A stretch of 64,000 bases of DNA from assembly GCA_023301725.1 (NCBI GenBank), contig JALZUD010000079.1:3324-67323 (forward strand). Direction: 5' to 3'. The translations under genes were made by a program, and so were the position numbers. Below are positions 5,720 through 25,488 of this stretch, in pieces. Source of the stretch: Granulosicoccus sp. Lineage in GTDB: Bacteria > Pseudomonadota > Gammaproteobacteria > Granulosicoccales > Granulosicoccaceae. The notes beneath the pieces are model-generated. The model had not been told where the DNA came from and did not search any database. It saw only the letters and a program-made list of their open reading frames with translations. Position 1 is the stretch's first letter. Each line of letters starts with the position of its first letter.

Positions 5720-5783
5720 GGTCTCACTATACGCTCGTCATCAGGGCGATGCGAGTATCACTTATCGGTCGTGCGACATGGGT

Positions 5784-5820
5784 CTGGCCGGACGCTGTCA
5801 AGAGTGACTCGTCCGGCCAG
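5784..5820. other. GC-rich stem-loop between gltB and dnaG
   Basis: CTGGCCGGACG/CGTCCGGCCAG 11-bp perfect stem plus inner GTCA/TGAC; no U-tract on either strand. Confidence 0.6.
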
Positions 5821-5838
5821 TATTCAGCTCATAGTGTG

Positions 5839-8800
5839 CTATGCAGCACGTCCTAGAGTCTGTAACAGCTCGCCCAGTTCCGCAGCTTTTGGCTTGACCA
5901 TCCAGAAACGCGCTGCCAGAGAATAGAAGTCGTCGACCATTTGTTGGCCAAGCGTGCTTCCCGTCTCGGTGACATGATCTTCCAGCAAAGTGAGCAGGTA
6001 GTTTCTGTAGCGTTCCATTGATTCAGCATGCAATCGGTGGATATCAATAAGCTCATGGTTGTAGCGATCTACAAAGACATTGTGTTGATCATAGACAAAG
6101 CCAAGTCCACCGGTCATGCCGGCACCAAAATTCACGCCGGTTTCGCCCAATACAACGATACAGCCGCCCGTCATGTATTCACAACCATGATCACCAATGC
6201 CTTCAATAACCGACACCGCACCACTGTTACGAACAGCGAAGCGCTCGCCACCTATTCCAGCGGCATACAACTGACCACCGGTTGCGCCATAGAGACAGGT
6301 GTTGCCAACAATGGCAGAATCTCTGCCACGAAAACGTGCATCGTGTGGGGGGCGGATAACAATCTTGCCTCCAGCCATACCCTTGCCCACATAATCGTTC
6401 GCGTCGCCATCCAGATACAGGTTCAATCCTCCGGCATTCCAGACACCAAACGATTGCCCGGCTGTACCTGTGAATCTAATATTCAGTGGCGAGTCTTCCA
6501 TGCCTTTGTCACCATGAACACGCGCAATTTCACCCGACAAGCGTGCACCGATAGAACGATTGATGTTCTTGATGGAGTAGTGAAAGTCACCACCGGCTTT
6601 TTTGCGAATAGCCGTCTTGCAATCAGACACCATTTGCTCTGCCAGTAAGCCTTTGTCGTGCGGAATATTGCGTTCCACCATGCAAAAGCGCGGCGCATCT
6701 TCGGGCACGCCACCGGTCGCTAGCAACGGGCTGAGATCCAATCGCTTTTGACGCTCGGTATTACCCGTGGCAGGTTTCAGATACTCAGGCTTTCCAATAA
6801 TCTCGCTTAAGTTTCGAACACCAATGCTTGCCATGTGTCGACGCACGTCTTCGGCGACGAACTGCATGTAGTTCATGACCTTTTCAACGTTGCCGTGGAA
6901 ATGGCGCATACGCAAGACTTTGTGCTGTGTGGCAATGCCGGTTGCGCAATTATTCAGGTGGCAGATACGCAAGTACTTGCAACCCATGGCTATCATCGGC
7001 CCAGTACCAAAACCGAAGCTCTCTGCACCTAGTATGGCTGCCTTGATAACATCGAGGCCTGTTTTTAAGCCACCGTCGGCTTGAACTCTCACATTGCCAC
7101 GTAGCCCGTTTGCTCTGAGAACCTGATGAGTTTCGGACATGCCCAGTTCCCACGGTGAGCCCGCGTACTTGACGCTGGTGAGTGGGGAGGCGCCCGTGCC
7201 GCCGTCGTAACCGGATATGGTGATTAGATCAGCATAGGCTTTGGCTACTCCTGCGGCAATAGTACCGACGCCTGCCTCAGCTACCAGTTTCACAGATATC
7301 AACGCTTCAGGATTGACTTGCTTCAAATCAAATATTAATTGAGCGAGGTCTTCTATTGAGTAGATATCGTGATGCGGAGGCGGAGAGATCAGCGCCACGC
7401 CCGGATTGCTGTGGCGCAAGCGCGCAATCATCTCGTTGACCTTGTGCCCAGGTAGCTGGCCGCCTTCACCGGGTTTTGCACCCTGTGCAATTTTAATTTG
7501 TAAGACTTCAGCATTTACTAGGTAGTGAGGTGTGACACCAAAACGACCCGAAGCAATTTGCTTGATCTTCGACATTTTGTTTGTGCCGTAGCGGGCCTTA
7601 TCTTCACCACCTTCACCTGAATTCGAGCGTCCGCCCAATCGGTTCATGGCTTCTGCCAAAGTTTCATGAGCCTCAGGGGATAACGCGCCAAGTGACATAC
7701 CCGCTGAATCAAAGCGTTTGAGAATAGACTCAACCGGCTCTACCGCTCCCACCGGAATAGGCGGGCCTTTGGGCGTCAGTTCCAGTAGATCACGGAGCAT
7801 GGAAGGCCTGCGGCCATCGACAGTGTCAGCGTATGTTTTGTAGTCTTCGTACTCGCCGCTGGTTACTGCAGCTTGTAGCTGTTGCACCACGTCCGGGTTG
7901 TACGCGTGGTATTCACCGCCGTGTATGTACTTCAGCAAGCCACCTTGTGAGATGGCAACCTGAGGATTGAAAGCCGACTTGGCCAAGGTACTGATGTCAG
8001 TATGTAGGTCTGAAAAATCGATACCCTGAATACGGCTGGTGGTGCCCTTAAAGCAAAGATCGACTACCGAGCTATGCAGCCCGACAATTTCATAGAGCTG
8101 AGCGCCTCGATAGCTGGATACAGTGGAGATACCCATCTTCGATAGGATCTTCATTAGACCCTTGTTTATGCCCTTGCGATAGTTCTGTTCCAGCTGCGCA
8201 ACGTCGGTGGCTGGCAGCTCTCCAGTGCGTGTTAAACCCTGAATGCTTTCGTATGCCAGATACGGGTACACGCAAGTAGCGCCGTAACCCACGAGGACCG
8301 CGATTTGATGAGAATCTCTGGCTGTGCCTGTGTCTATTACTAGATTGGCATCGCAACGACAATCCGCTTTGATCAGCGCATGATGCACAGCGCCTGTGGC
8401 AAGTAAGGCATGCACAGGTAGCAAGTTGCTGGCAAGATCGCGATCACTGAGAATGATGATGACTTTTTGATCAACGTTTACAGCGCTGATTGCAGAATCA
8501 CATATGCGCTTAACTGCCGCCTCAAGTGTTTCTGACTCTGGATCGTATTGCAGGCTCAGAATAACGTGTGAGTAGCCTGGTTCGTCGTCCATGGCCAGTA
8601 GTGTCTGGAATTTTTCGCTCGACAGAACGGGCGATCGAACCAGTAGGCGATTAGCGTGATGATGGGTTTCACGAAACAGGTTTTTCTCTCGCCCCAAGCA
8701 TGTTTCCAACGACATGACAATCGTTTCTCGCAGGGGGTCGATAGGTGGGTTAGTAACCTGAGCAAACTGTTGGCGAAAGTTATCGTAGAGGTGCCGAACA

Positions 8801-23627: not shown

Positions 23628-23652
23628 GGTTTCTTAAAAAGTGGCTTATGAC

Positions 23653-23822
23653 GGAATAACACTTACTGTACTGGTCATCCCCATGAAAGTGGGGATCCAC
23701 GCTGTGGAAAGTCTGGTTTTCCGCTTTGCGGGAATGACATTTTCGCTTTAGTAAGTGCCGTGTGTTTGTGGTGGGATAACACTGACTGTACGGGTCATCC
23801 CCACGAAAATGGGGATCTATGC
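23653..23822. repeat. Two 50-nt direct repeats (120-nt period) carrying GTCATCCCC..GGGGAT REP-like palindromes
   Basis: 23653-23702 vs 23773-23822 match at 43/50 by hand count. The first has an inverted partner CTGGTTTTCCGCTTTGCGGGAATGAC (23713-23738), as in GTCATTCCCGCG..GCGGGAATCCA repeat dimers. Confidence 0.8.
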
Positions 23823-25277
23823 GCTGGCAACGGCTGGCTCAGACGACGTGACAGTCGCCGCACTCAGGTACTTAACGATACCTTCTGCTGCATTCCTGCC
23901 TTCGAAGACAGCGGTCACCACTAAATCTGACCCTCTCACCATATCACCGCCAGCGAACACTTGAGGGTTGGTTGTCTGATGCATGTACTGACCACCTTCA
24001 GGGGCTAGGACTCGGCCGCCGTCGTCGGTATTGATGTCGAATTGTTCAAACCAACTGGCAGGATTGGGACGAAAACCGAAAGCAACTAATACAGCTTCTG
24101 CGGGGATGACTTCTTCAGTGCCATCGACAACTTCCGGCATGCGACGGCCGCGTGCATCGGGTTGCCCCAGTTGTGTTGTGACCACCTTTACGCCGCTGAC
24201 GTTGCCAGCACTGTCGCCAACGATTTCAATAGGTTGGCGATTCCACAAGAAATCCACGCCTTCTTCCTTGGCGTTTTTCACTTCTTTTCTTGACCCGGGC
24301 ATGTTTTTCTCGTCGCGTCTGTATGCACAAGTGACGCTTTTCGCTCCCTGGCGTATCGATGTGCGGTTGCAGTCCATCGCGGTATCGCCGCCACCAAGCA
24401 CAACGACACGCTTATCTCTCAAGTCAATGAAGTTGGCCTTGTCAGTGTCCCATTGATATTGGTAGTTAACGTTGGAGATCAGGTACGGCAACGCTTCGTG
24501 CACATTATTCATATCCTCGCCAGGGAAGCCACCACGCATGGATGTATACGTACCCATGGCCAGAAATACAGCGTCGTAGTCGTCAAGTAAACTTTGGAAG
24601 CTGATGTCTTTGCCGATTTCTGTGTTGAGCACGAATTCAACACCCATCTCTTCCATGATCTCTCGTCGCGTAAAGACCACTTCCTTTTCCAGTTTGAACG
24701 GTGGGATACCAAAGGTGAGTAAGCCACCGATTTCGGCATACTTGTCGAAGACCACAGCCTTGACGCCGTTTCGAGTTAATACATCGGCACATCCCAAGCC
24801 CGCAGGGCCTGCACCAATGATGGCCACTTTGTGCCCCGTTGATACCACGGCCGACAAGTCGGGACGCCAGCCTTGTTTGAGCGCTTCGTCAGTGATGTAT
24901 TTTTCAATAGAGCCGATGGTGACGGCACCGAACCCGTCGTTCAAAGTGCAAGCGCCCTCGCAGAGTCTGTCTTGTGGGCAAACTCGGCCGCACATCTCAG
25001 GCAGGGAATTGGTTTTGTGCGACATTTCAGCCGCCTCAAACAAATTGCCCTCGGCAACGAGCTTCAACCAATTGGGAATGTAGTTATGTACTGGGCACTT
25101 CCATTCGCAGTAGGGATTGCCACAAGATAAACAGCGACCCGCTTGTGCTCCGGCTTTCTCGGCATTGAACTGACCGCTGATTTCCTTGAAATGCTTTATG
25201 CGTACCGCCGGTTTGATTTTTTTAGGTTCTTTTCGGGGTAGGTCGAGGAACTGGAAAGTGATGTCGCTCATTTGCAT
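23817..25277 (-). CDS. gltD: Glutamate synthase small subunit
   Basis: [62 protein letters not shown]. Confidence 0.97.
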
Positions 25278-25488
25278 CGCCCTTGCAAGCGCCCGCTAAA
25301 CTCGGACGCAAAAAATTAAGGATTGCATCATGGCAAAAGCCAGACGCCTTTGGTTCTTGCGTTTTGTACTATCAAACAATCCTAGCAGGCTTCTCCTTGC
25401 CTGCTCGGTGCCATATTGTCACGCAACCTTGTACGCAATCGACAAGTCGTTGATGCGTTGGTGGCAGAACAAATCTACGATAGGCTTG

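What the first reader, a model, noticed from the sequence alone, without database searches (positions are those of the whole stretch)
5720..25488. Circularly permuted mrcA-pil-aro-gltBD-hemE block inserted between yqeY and dnaG, splitting gltB from gltD
Established: in P. aeruginosa (PA5045-PA5034) the order is mrcA / pilMNOPQ-aroK-aroB-AAA/SPOR-gltB-gltD-hemE, and rpsU-yqeY-dnaG are contiguous (PA0579-PA0577). Seen, reading the minus strand: rpsU-yqeY | gltD-hemE >< mrcA / pilM..Q-aroK-aroB-SPOR-gltB | dnaG. This is the product expected if the ~20-kb block circularised (new hemE/mrcA junction) and reintegrated by one crossover between the gltB/gltD and yqeY/dnaG spacers. The glutamate synthase genes end up 13.5 kb apart in reversed order, and no mobile-element genes are present. 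Inference: circle-mediated relocation of core genes; tandem duplication with reciprocal loss, or two separate moves, would give the same map.
Basis: partly seen in the sequence, partly recalled or inferred. Interest (0 to 1): 0.7.

Follow-up and report, generated by a model that had tools for sequence, protein, structure and literature searches.

The report
Ancient clade-wide permuted block in primase operon
The odd gene order is real, but it is an old rearrangement inherited by all Granulosicoccaceae and several sister families of marine Gammaproteobacteria; it is not a recent relocation in this genome, so it is an ordinary, if tidy, lineage marker.

Summary
The map is exactly as described. 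On the minus strand it reads rpsU-yqeY | gltD-hemE >< mrcA / pilMNOPQ-aroK-aroB-AAA/SPOR-gltB | dnaG, and all gene identities and the three spacer coordinates hold.

The order is not specific to this genome. Every Granulosicoccaceae genome that could be scored has it, out of 85 searched, including three complete chromosomes. MAGs from at least seven further GTDB families also show its junctions.

Sister lineages keep rpoD directly after dnaG. Pseudomonas-type outgroups keep both ancestral units.

On trees built from genes outside the block (rpoB, rpoC, carB, dnaE), all 18 derived genomes form one clade, with support of 88-94. The arrangement maps as a single change.

The two partly split variants (G005, G008) nest inside that clade, so no intermediate survives. 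Circle-mediated relocation cannot be told apart from two overlapping inversions. I lean towards inversions, because most ancestral-type relatives carry the two operons on opposite strands.

Genomes that lost gltB also lost gltD, and they keep an adjacent paralogous pair. Misassembly and a mobile element are excluded.

The parts
26509..27564 (+). tsaD, divergent from rpsU; this is the native left flank of the old rpsU operon
   Evidence: TIGR03723, 419 bits. The same tsaD<>rpsU pairing is seen in ancestral-type outgroups.
26223..26438 (-). rpsU (ribosomal protein S21), first gene of the old macromolecular-synthesis operon
   Evidence: Pfam Ribosomal_S21, 4e-22. A sigma70-like promoter match lies at 26516-26487.
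25489..25935 (-). yqeY (GatB/YqeY-domain protein)
   Evidence: Pfam YqeY, 1.7e-53.
25278..25488 (.). Junction 1: yqeY|gltD spacer (211 bp) with a weak hairpin at 25384-25405
   Evidence: The spacer length varies from 50 to 211 bp among relatives and the sequence is not conserved.
23817..25277 (-). gltD (glutamate synthase small subunit)
   Evidence: TIGR01318, 762 bits.
23646..23830 (.). Two copies of a 65-nt hairpin-bearing repeat in the gltD-hemE spacer
   Evidence: the repeat finder family D1, 80% identity. The core of about 26 nt recurs on five other contigs.
22569..23627 (-). hemE (uroporphyrinogen decarboxylase)
   Evidence: TIGR01464, 441 bits.
22478..22568 (.). Junction 3: convergent hemE><mrcA spacer with a 12-bp-stem hairpin (about 22488-22514) plus a U tract, probably a terminator
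   Evidence: Sequence. Fold energy -30.4 kcal/mol, z -4.84.
19841..22477 (+). mrcA (PBP1A), the only plus-strand gene of the block
   Evidence: TIGR02074, 585 bits.
14563..19616 (-). pilM-pilN-pilO-pilP-pilQ type IV pilus assembly genes
   Evidence: TIGR01175 for pilM and TIGR02515 for pilQ. Pfam PilN, PilO and PilP.
12697..14359 (-). aroK and aroB
   Evidence: NF003456 and TIGR01357.
10729..12564 (-). AAA_22 + SPOR domain protein, the counterpart of the Pseudomonas gene between aroB and gltB
   Evidence: Pfam AAA_22 and SPOR.
5839..10326 (-). gltB (glutamate synthase large subunit), the only gltB in this genome
   Evidence: NF008730, 2504 bits. G000 gives a single match.
5720..5838 (.). Junction 2: gltB|dnaG spacer (119 bp) with a strong GC hairpin (about 5784-5820), no U tract and no promoter match
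   Evidence: Fold z -5.25. In relatives the spacer is 9-247 bp and usually carries an unrelated hairpin.
3992..5719 (-). dnaG (primase)
   Evidence: TIGR01391, 468 bits.
2348..4005 (-). rsmE and cobB, overlapping dnaG and each other; they take the place of rpoD (a later, narrower breakpoint)
   Evidence: NF008692 and NF003738. dnaG-rsmE is also found in f65 and f74 genomes. dnaG-rpoD is kept in G005, G006 and G008-G010.

Best explanation
This is a fixed, vertically inherited gene-order state, not an active element or a recent event.

Origin. In the common ancestor of a clade of Gammaproteobacteria, two conserved units were recombined at four breakpoints: W|mrcA, gltB|gltD, hemE|X and yqeY|dnaG. 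The clade holds Granulosicoccaceae and at least seven further GTDB families of mostly uncultured marine or sediment MAGs. The two units were mrcA<>pilMNOPQ-aroK-aroB-SPOR-gltB-gltD-hemE and tsaD<>rpsU-yqeY-dnaG-rpoD. The result was tsaD<>rpsU-yqeY-gltD-hemE><mrcA<>pilM...gltB-dnaG-rpoD.

Later changes. A later break on the branch leading to Granulosicoccaceae, f65 and f74 replaced rpoD by rsmE. Further local changes produced the G005 and G008 variants.

Mechanism (inferred, not shown). Any route needs two double-cut-and-join steps. I think the likeliest route (about 45%) is two successive overlapping inversions between oppositely oriented operons, because every intermediate keeps all essential genes on the chromosome. 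Excision of a roughly 20-kb circle and reintegration is next (about 25%). Two separate transpositions or other routes make up the rest.

Consequence (inferred). gltD-hemE now lie behind rpsU-yqeY, and dnaG lies behind gltB. Hairpins, but no recognisable promoters, occupy the spacers, so read-through transcription is plausible. gltB and gltD still act as a pair.
For: Shared order within the family.
- Five close and more distant Granulosicoccaceae MAGs have the same order.
- Among the 85 genomes of the order (one family, six genera), gltB abuts dnaG, with gltD 13-25 kb away on the same strand, wherever contigs allow. This includes the complete chromosomes G047, G054 and G096.

Shared order outside the order.
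- G006 and G010 have all three junctions and keep dnaG-rpoD.
- G172 (f65) has the full order.
- gltB sits next to dnaG in f74, f132, f166 and f168, and close to it in f112.

Ancestral order in outgroups. Arenicella, G012, G013, Pseudomonas, Methylophaga, Cycloclasticus, Ectothiorhodospiraceae, Nevskiales/Salinisphaeraceae and Acidiferrobacteraceae all keep it.

Single origin.
- rpoB+rpoC places the derived genomes in one clade, 94/88.
- rpoB+rpoC+carB gives 93/91 and one change of state.
- Adding dnaE (4,091 columns) puts all 18 derived genomes in one clade, SH-aLRT 93, one change.
- The block genes themselves give a derived clade with support 96.
- An AU test does not reject monophyly (p = 0.37).

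Inversion route.
- In 7 of 10 ancestral-type genomes with both loci on one contig, the operons lie on opposite strands. These are G133, G152, G503, G296, G204, G482 and G099.
- In G503 they are convergent and 30 kb apart.

Functional pairing. G015 and G097 lost both gltB and gltD cleanly from the two ends of the block. They keep an adjacent paralogous gltB-gltD pair.
Against: - Support for the derived clade is moderate (88-94, never starred), and the deep internodes are very short.
- A tree that mixes block genes with dnaG put Arenicella, which has the ancestral order, beside Granulosicoccaceae and scattered G006 and G008.
- rpoB and rpoC are missing from G000, Arenicella and G013, so those rows rest on carB alone.
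- No intermediate arrangement was found, so the preference for inversions rests only on the orientation of extant relatives and on viability arguments.
- Pseudomonas and G272 have the two operons on the same strand. With that layout a circular intermediate would be required.
Confidence: 0.85

Rival explanations
1. The roughly 20-kb block left the chromosome as a circle, creating the hemE/mrcA joint and an empty W|X site. It then re-entered by one crossover between the gltB/gltD spacer and the yqeY/dnaG spacer.
For: The map is an exact circular permutation inserted between yqeY and dnaG. Sister lineages keep rpoD right after dnaG. Two double-cut-and-join steps through a circular intermediate is the textbook minimal scenario (Yancopoulos 2005, as cited in PMC2483231). 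The route is required if the ancestor had the two operons on the same strand, as in Pseudomonas and G272.
Against: The circle would carry essential genes (aroK, aroB, hemE, gltBD) without an origin, so the intermediate is not viable unless the block was duplicated first. There are no repeats, att-like sites or recombinase genes. The final map is identical to that of two inversions. Most ancestral-type relatives have the operons on opposite strands, which allows plain inversions.
Confidence: 0.25
2. The order is a recent relocation or an assembly artefact of this MAG.
For: The genome is a 148-contig MAG.
Against: The same three junctions occur in dozens of independent assemblies, including three complete chromosomes.
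Confidence: 0.01
3. The permuted order is the ancestral gammaproteobacterial state, and the Pseudomonas-type order is derived.
For: None beyond the fact that trees are unrooted with respect to gene order.
Against: gltB-gltD adjacency and rpsU-(yqeY)-dnaG-rpoD are found in all sampled lineages outside one clade, including a betaproteobacterial-grade MAG (L079). The derived state maps as one change, nested inside ancestral-type lineages.
Confidence: 0.03
4. The arrangement spread laterally between lineages as a 25-kb cassette. Homologous recombination in the highly conserved flanks (rpsU/tsaD and dnaG/rpoD) would carry it in, followed by loss of the native copies.
For: The four-gene tree of block genes plus dnaG conflicts with the marker trees over Arenicella, G006 and G008. 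The flanks are conserved enough for recombination.
Against: Block-gene and marker-gene trees both recover the derived genomes as one group. The AU test does not reject monophyly. No genome was seen with both a native and a permuted copy. Base composition is even.
Confidence: 0.05

Closest known systems
Macromolecular-synthesis (MMS) operon rpsU-dnaG-rpoD of E. coli, and its rpsU-yqeY-dnaG-rpoD form in Pseudomonas and many other Gammaproteobacteria
   Same: tsaD<>rpsU-yqeY is intact at the left end. dnaG is still read in the same direction. Sister lineages keep dnaG-rpoD. A hairpin precedes dnaG, as terminator T1 does in E. coli (E. coli detail from my own knowledge).
   Different: About 20 kb and 13 unrelated genes separate yqeY from dnaG. 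dnaG follows gltB. In this family rpoD has moved elsewhere and rsmE-cobB follow dnaG.
Pseudomonas-type supercluster mrcA(ponA)<>pilMNOPQ-aroK-aroB-(AAA/SPOR)-gltB-gltD-hemE
   Same: The gene content is the same, and so are the internal order and orientation of mrcA<>pilM...gltB and of gltD-hemE.
   Different: The cluster is cut between gltB and gltD, and the two parts are swapped. hemE now converges on mrcA, and gltB and gltD lie 13.5 kb apart.
Block interchange or transposition through two double-cut-and-join steps (circular intermediate), and paired overlapping inversions, as treated in genome-rearrangement theory (references 62-64 of PMC2483231)
   Same: Four adjacencies are broken and four new ones are made, without gain or loss of genes. 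This is exactly the two-step class.
   Different: Nothing here shows which physical route was taken. No intermediates, repeats or recombinases are present.
Earlier notes of this scan on other genomes (e1-956659 with follow-up, e1-692804, e1-4948826, e1-734259, e1-2874491)
   Same: They describe the same permuted block inside rpsU-yqeY / dnaG. The follow-up reached the same verdict of an ancient, clade-wide rearrangement.
   Different: Those genomes show variants (no pil genes, dnaG-metK, a 1-nt gltB-dnaG gap) that I did not examine.

Membership tests
Canonical MMS operon (rpsU-[yqeY]-dnaG-rpoD) | dnaG lies directly downstream of rpsU/yqeY | tested here: not met
   19.8 kb lie between the yqeY stop (25489) and the dnaG start (5719).
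Canonical MMS operon (rpsU-[yqeY]-dnaG-rpoD) | rpoD lies directly downstream of dnaG | tested here: not met
   rsmE overlaps the end of dnaG. rpoD is on contig C39. The feature is met in sister lineages G005, G006 and G008-G010.
Canonical gltBD operon | gltB is immediately followed by gltD on the same strand | tested here: not met
   gltD lies 13,490 bp upstream of gltB in reading direction. The feature is met in about 65 outgroup loci and in the paralogous pair of G015 and G097.
Mobile element or genomic island | Integrase, transposase or relaxase genes, or terminal repeats / att sites at the borders | tested here: not met
   All ORFs of at least 100 aa are housekeeping genes. No repeats link the junctions. 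There is no Rfam or tRNA-type hit in 3000-28000.
Mobile element or genomic island | Patchy distribution among close relatives and deviant base composition | tested here: not met
   The block is present in essentially all 85 genomes of the family. G+C is 0.46-0.54, like the flanks.
Clade-defining rare genomic change (synapomorphy) | The derived state maps as one change on a tree built from independent genes | tested here: met
   One change on the rpoB+rpoC+carB tree and on the tree that adds dnaE. Clade support is 88-94, which is moderate.
   All routes give the same final map, and no intermediate lineage was found.

The most novel reading that the evidence does not exclude
The rearrangement has been kept for so long, across at least eight families, because it rewires control. 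Primase (with rsmE-cobB, or rpoD in the sister lineages) would be read through from the nitrogen-regulated gltB transcript, past a hairpin attenuator. The GOGAT small subunit and hemE would ride on the growth-rate-controlled rpsU transcript. DNA priming would then be tied to nitrogen status, and the GOGAT subunit ratio would be set by two different promoters.
Probability: 0.12. Interest if true: 0.55.

Novelty: new member of a known kind. Interest (0 to 1): 0.3.

Why it matters
The rearrangement is a clean rare genomic change. It marks a deep and otherwise weakly resolved clade of Gammaproteobacteria (Granulosicoccaceae plus several uncultured families), so it is a useful check on phylogenomic trees.

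It also shows that two near-universal operons, gltBD and rpsU-dnaG-rpoD, can be broken and stay broken over very long times. The split gltB and gltD still behave as a unit, because they are lost together when a paralogous adjacent pair is present.

Granulosicoccus antarcticus is cultured. It offers a simple natural test of how primase and GOGAT expression cope without their usual operon context.

The finding does not point to a new mechanism or a new kind of element.

Tried and rejected
Conservation across assemblies stands in for it.

2. Junction micro-homology: no repeat links the three spacers. The spacers are not alignable even within the genus, so this test cannot work at this age.

3. 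G005 as a surviving single-inversion intermediate. It has rpsU-yqeY-gltD-hemE-dusA on one contig and gltB-dnaG-rpoD on another. I rejected this as the likeliest reading because G005 groups with G009/G010 (and with G239), which carry derived-type junctions, in three of four marker trees. It is unresolved in the fourth. Its gltB has also lost the aroB-SPOR neighbours that such an intermediate should keep.

4. G008 as a single-inversion product of a divergent ancestor. Its order is hemE' gltD' yqeY' rpsU' | aroB-SPOR-gltB-dnaG-rpoD. It is nested among derived genomes, so I read it as secondary.

5. Tandem duplication with random loss. Worked through on paper, one duplication cannot give the order a-d-c-b from any contiguous ancestral order. 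I dropped it as less parsimonious.

6. Origin-symmetric inversion suggested by Pseudomonas gene numbers. In P. putida PSE9 dnaG (0.527 Mb) and gltD (about 6.374 of 6.768 Mb) are roughly symmetric but on the same strand, so an inversion there would not give the observed joints.

7. A tree of block genes plus dnaG gave a conflicting topology, so I replaced it with trees from genes outside the region.

8. An Rfam scan of the region found no known RNA element.

9. Literature searches found no description of this arrangement.
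Full report
OBSERVATION

Read on the minus strand, the order is:
- rpsU (26438-26223) and yqeY (25935-25489)
- gltD (25277-23817) and hemE (23627-22569)
- mrcA, convergent on the plus strand (19841-22477)
- pilM-N-O-P-Q (19616-14563)
- aroK and aroB (14359-12697)
- an AAA_22+SPOR protein (12564-10729)
- gltB (10326-5839)
- dnaG (5719-3992)

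The three spacers are 25278-25488, 22478-22568 and 5720-5838. gltB and gltD are 13,490 bp apart. No other sizeable ORF lies in the block, and G+C matches the flanks. tsaD and plsY, the usual left neighbours of rpsU, are in place.

The genome's rpoD sits at the end of contig C39, divergent from tkt.

IS THE ORDER PECULIAR TO THIS GENOME? NO.

A scan of species-representative genomes with GltD, followed by tblastn mapping of the window's proteins onto 80 loci, gave two results:
- The closest relatives, uncultured Granulosicoccaceae with 76-81% GltD identity, share rpsU-yqeY-gltD-hemE-mrcA'-pilM.
- About 65 other Gammaproteobacteria have ...aroK-aroB-gltB-gltD-hemE. These include Pseudomonas, Cycloclasticus, Methylophaga, Ectothiorhodospiraceae, Nevskiales, Salinisphaeraceae, Acidiferrobacteraceae and Arenicella.

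The dnaG side agrees. The Granulosicoccaceae MAGs have aroK-aroB-SPOR-gltB-dnaG-rsmE. Arenicella, G012 and G013 have tsaD'-rpsU-yqeY-dnaG. Eleven further outgroups have tsaD'-rpsU-(yqeY)-dnaG-rpoD.

The GTDB order of the window holds 85 genomes in one family and six genera. Searches with GltB, DnaG and GltD show gltB directly beside dnaG, with gltD 13-25 kb away on the same strand, wherever the contigs allow. This holds for the complete chromosomes G047 (7.78 Mb, same genus), G054 and G096. G047 and G096 were read gene by gene and carry the full order. Misassembly and a recent event are therefore excluded.

HOW FAR DOES IT REACH?

The order reaches MAGs outside the order:
- G006 and G010 have all three junctions and still have gltB-dnaG-rpoD. 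Their hemE C-terminus converges on mrcA.
- G009 has junction 1 and dnaG-rpoD.
- In an even sample of 400 genomes of the class, I compared gltB and dnaG positions for the 80 genomes whose DnaG scored best against the window's. gltB abuts dnaG in G181 (f74), G172 (f65), G275 and G437 (f168), G239 (f132) and G273 (f166). It lies 1.5-5.9 kb from dnaG in G219 and G398 (f112).
- G172, read in full, has the complete order including dnaG-rsmE. G181 has gltB-dnaG-rsmE.

The dnaG|rpoD break is a later and narrower event.

ONE ORIGIN OR SEVERAL?

Trees from the rearranged genes themselves:
- gltB+gltD+hemE recovers the derived genomes, apart from G005, as a clade with SH-aLRT 96.
- Adding dnaG gave a conflicting topology, with Arenicella beside Granulosicoccaceae. 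An AU test on that data set does not reject monophyly of all 11 derived genomes (p = 0.37).

I then used genes outside the region:
- rpoB plus the start of rpoC gives the derived genomes as one clade at 94/88.
- carB keeps them together at 90/89, with one unresolved long ancestral-type row, and places Arenicella elsewhere.
- The three genes concatenated give 93/91 and one change of state.
- Adding dnaE (4,091 columns, 35 genomes) puts all 18 derived genomes in one clade with SH-aLRT 93, again one change.

Support is moderate and the internodes are short, but four independent data sets agree. The simplest reading is a single ancient origin with vertical descent.

ARE THERE INTERMEDIATES?

Two genomes have only part of the pattern.
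- G005 is a 2.1-Mb MAG. It has plsY-tsaD'-rpsU-yqeY-gltD-hemE-dusA on one contig and acetyltransferase'-gltB-dnaG-rpoD on another, with mrcA-pilMN elsewhere.
- G008 has hemE'-gltD'-yqeY'-rpsU' | aroB-SPOR-gltB-dnaG-rpoD on one contig and mrcA'-pilMN on another.

Either could pass for the product of a single inversion. But G005 groups with G009/G010 (and with G239) in three of four marker analyses and is unresolved. G008 is nested with G437, G275 and G006. G005's gltB has also lost its aroB-SPOR neighbours. I read both as secondary break-ups of the full arrangement. No surviving intermediate was found.

MECHANISM

Four adjacencies were lost: W|mrcA, gltB|gltD, hemE|X and yqeY|dnaG. Four were made: W|X, yqeY|gltD, hemE|mrcA and gltB|dnaG. 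Any route takes two double-cut-and-join steps. The literature on such scenarios is cited in PMC2483231.

Another route is two overlapping inversions. The first has endpoints at gltB|gltD and yqeY|dnaG and creates junctions 1 and 2. The second has endpoints at W|mrcA and hemE|X and creates junction 3. This works only if the two operons lie on opposite strands.
- Among ancestral-type genomes with both loci on one contig, that is the case in G133, G152, G503, G296, G204, G482 and the Salinisphaeraceae chromosome G099.
- The operons are on the same strand in G272 and two Pseudomonas genomes.
- In G503 the operons are convergent and only 30 kb apart.

Inversions are the commonest bacterial rearrangement (my own knowledge), and their intermediates keep aroK, aroB, hemE and gltBD on the chromosome. 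I therefore favour this route at about 45%, over the circle at about 25%. The final maps are identical and nothing here decides between them. Junction micro-homology is absent, and the spacers are not even alignable within the genus.

WHAT IT DOES NOW (INFERENCE)

- No sigma70-like promoter match falls in either co-directional junction spacer. The only match is the rpsU promoter.
- The gltB|dnaG spacer holds a strong GC hairpin without a U tract (z -5.25). Unrelated hairpins occupy the same place in G001, G172 and G181.
- G002 has only about 9 bp between gltB and dnaG, and G096 has no structure there.
- The convergent hemE><mrcA spacer holds a hairpin with a U tract that looks like a terminator (z -4.8). 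In G047 and G001 this joint has taken up 3.2 kb and 5.1 kb of extra DNA.

Read-through of dnaG from gltB, and of gltD-hemE from rpsU-yqeY, is therefore plausible but untested. No Rfam family matches the region.

A SIDE RESULT

In genus g2 (G015) and in G097 of genus g6, the block reads rpsU-yqeY | hemE-mrcA'-pil...aroB-SPOR | dnaG-rsmE. Both gltD and gltB are gone, one from each end. These genomes keep a conventional adjacent gltB-gltD pair with 44% and 35% identity to the window's proteins. G097's congeners G095 and G096 retain the split pair, so the joint loss happened at least twice. G022 is probably a third case. Although 13 kb apart, the split genes behave as a functional pair.

COMPARISON AND NOVELTY

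The closest known things are the MMS operon, the Pseudomonas-type pil-aro-glt-hemE supercluster, and the general theory of block interchange and paired inversions. This is not a mobile element. It has no recombinase, no border repeats, no patchy distribution and no odd composition.

I found no paper describing this arrangement. Earlier notes of this scan flagged the same pattern in several other genomes, and one follow-up reached the same verdict. My conclusions rest on my own searches.

VERDICT

But the event is ancient and clade-wide, and its route is undecidable. Interest is modest (0.3). It is a tidy rare genomic change and a natural experiment in operon disruption, not a new kind of system.

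Noticed in passing
L148 (G015:C7:58000-77999) and L150 (G097:C4:443000-462999): Two Granulosicoccaceae lineages have the same block with both gltD and gltB cleanly missing from its two ends. They keep a conventional adjacent gltB-gltD paralog pair (44%/35% identity; L191, L192). This is joint loss of genes that lie 13 kb apart.
   Followed up: yes
window 23646-23710 and 23766-23830: Two copies (80% identical) of a 65-nt element with a hairpin core (ATCCCCA...TGGGGAT) lie in the gltD-hemE spacer. The core of about 26 nt recurs on contigs C19, C39, C44, C76 and C96. It may be a small REP-like repeat.
   Followed up: partly
L153 3477-6680 (G047) and L001 12546-17615 (G001): The convergent hemE><mrcA joint, 91 bp in the window, has taken up 3.2 kb and 5.1 kb of extra DNA in two congeners. 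The content was not examined.
   Followed up: no
window 3992-4005 and 3199-3238; genome contig C39:50549-52366: dnaG overlaps rsmE by 14 nt and rsmE overlaps cobB by 40 nt, which suggests a gltB-dnaG-rsmE-cobB transcription unit. rpoD stands alone, divergent from tkt-gap-pgk-fba.
   Followed up: partly
window 5784-5820: A strong GC-rich hairpin without a U tract lies between gltB and dnaG (z -5.25). Unrelated hairpins sit at the same place in G001, G172 and G181, but not in G096 or G002.
   Followed up: partly
window 10327-10728: The 402-bp spacer upstream of gltB was flagged by another first-stage note (e1-5266553) for a phased GTTGC/GCAAC array. It implies that gltB keeps its own control region inside the block.
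   Followed up: no
table (for example G087:C172, G041:C63, G056:C3): About 30 of the 85 family genomes carry a second glutamate synthase large-subunit gene, 43-46% identical to the window's. The window's genome has only the split pair.
   Followed up: partly
genome G000 as a whole: tblastn finds no rpoB or rpoC anywhere in the 148-contig assembly, so the rpoBC region is missing from this MAG despite 94% estimated completeness.
   Followed up: yes
L102 (G008:C9:1-20000): A further rearranged variant: hemE'-gltD'-yqeY'-rpsU' lies divergent from aroB-SPOR-gltB-dnaG-rpoD. tsaD, aroK, pil and mrcA have been removed from the locus.
   Followed up: partly
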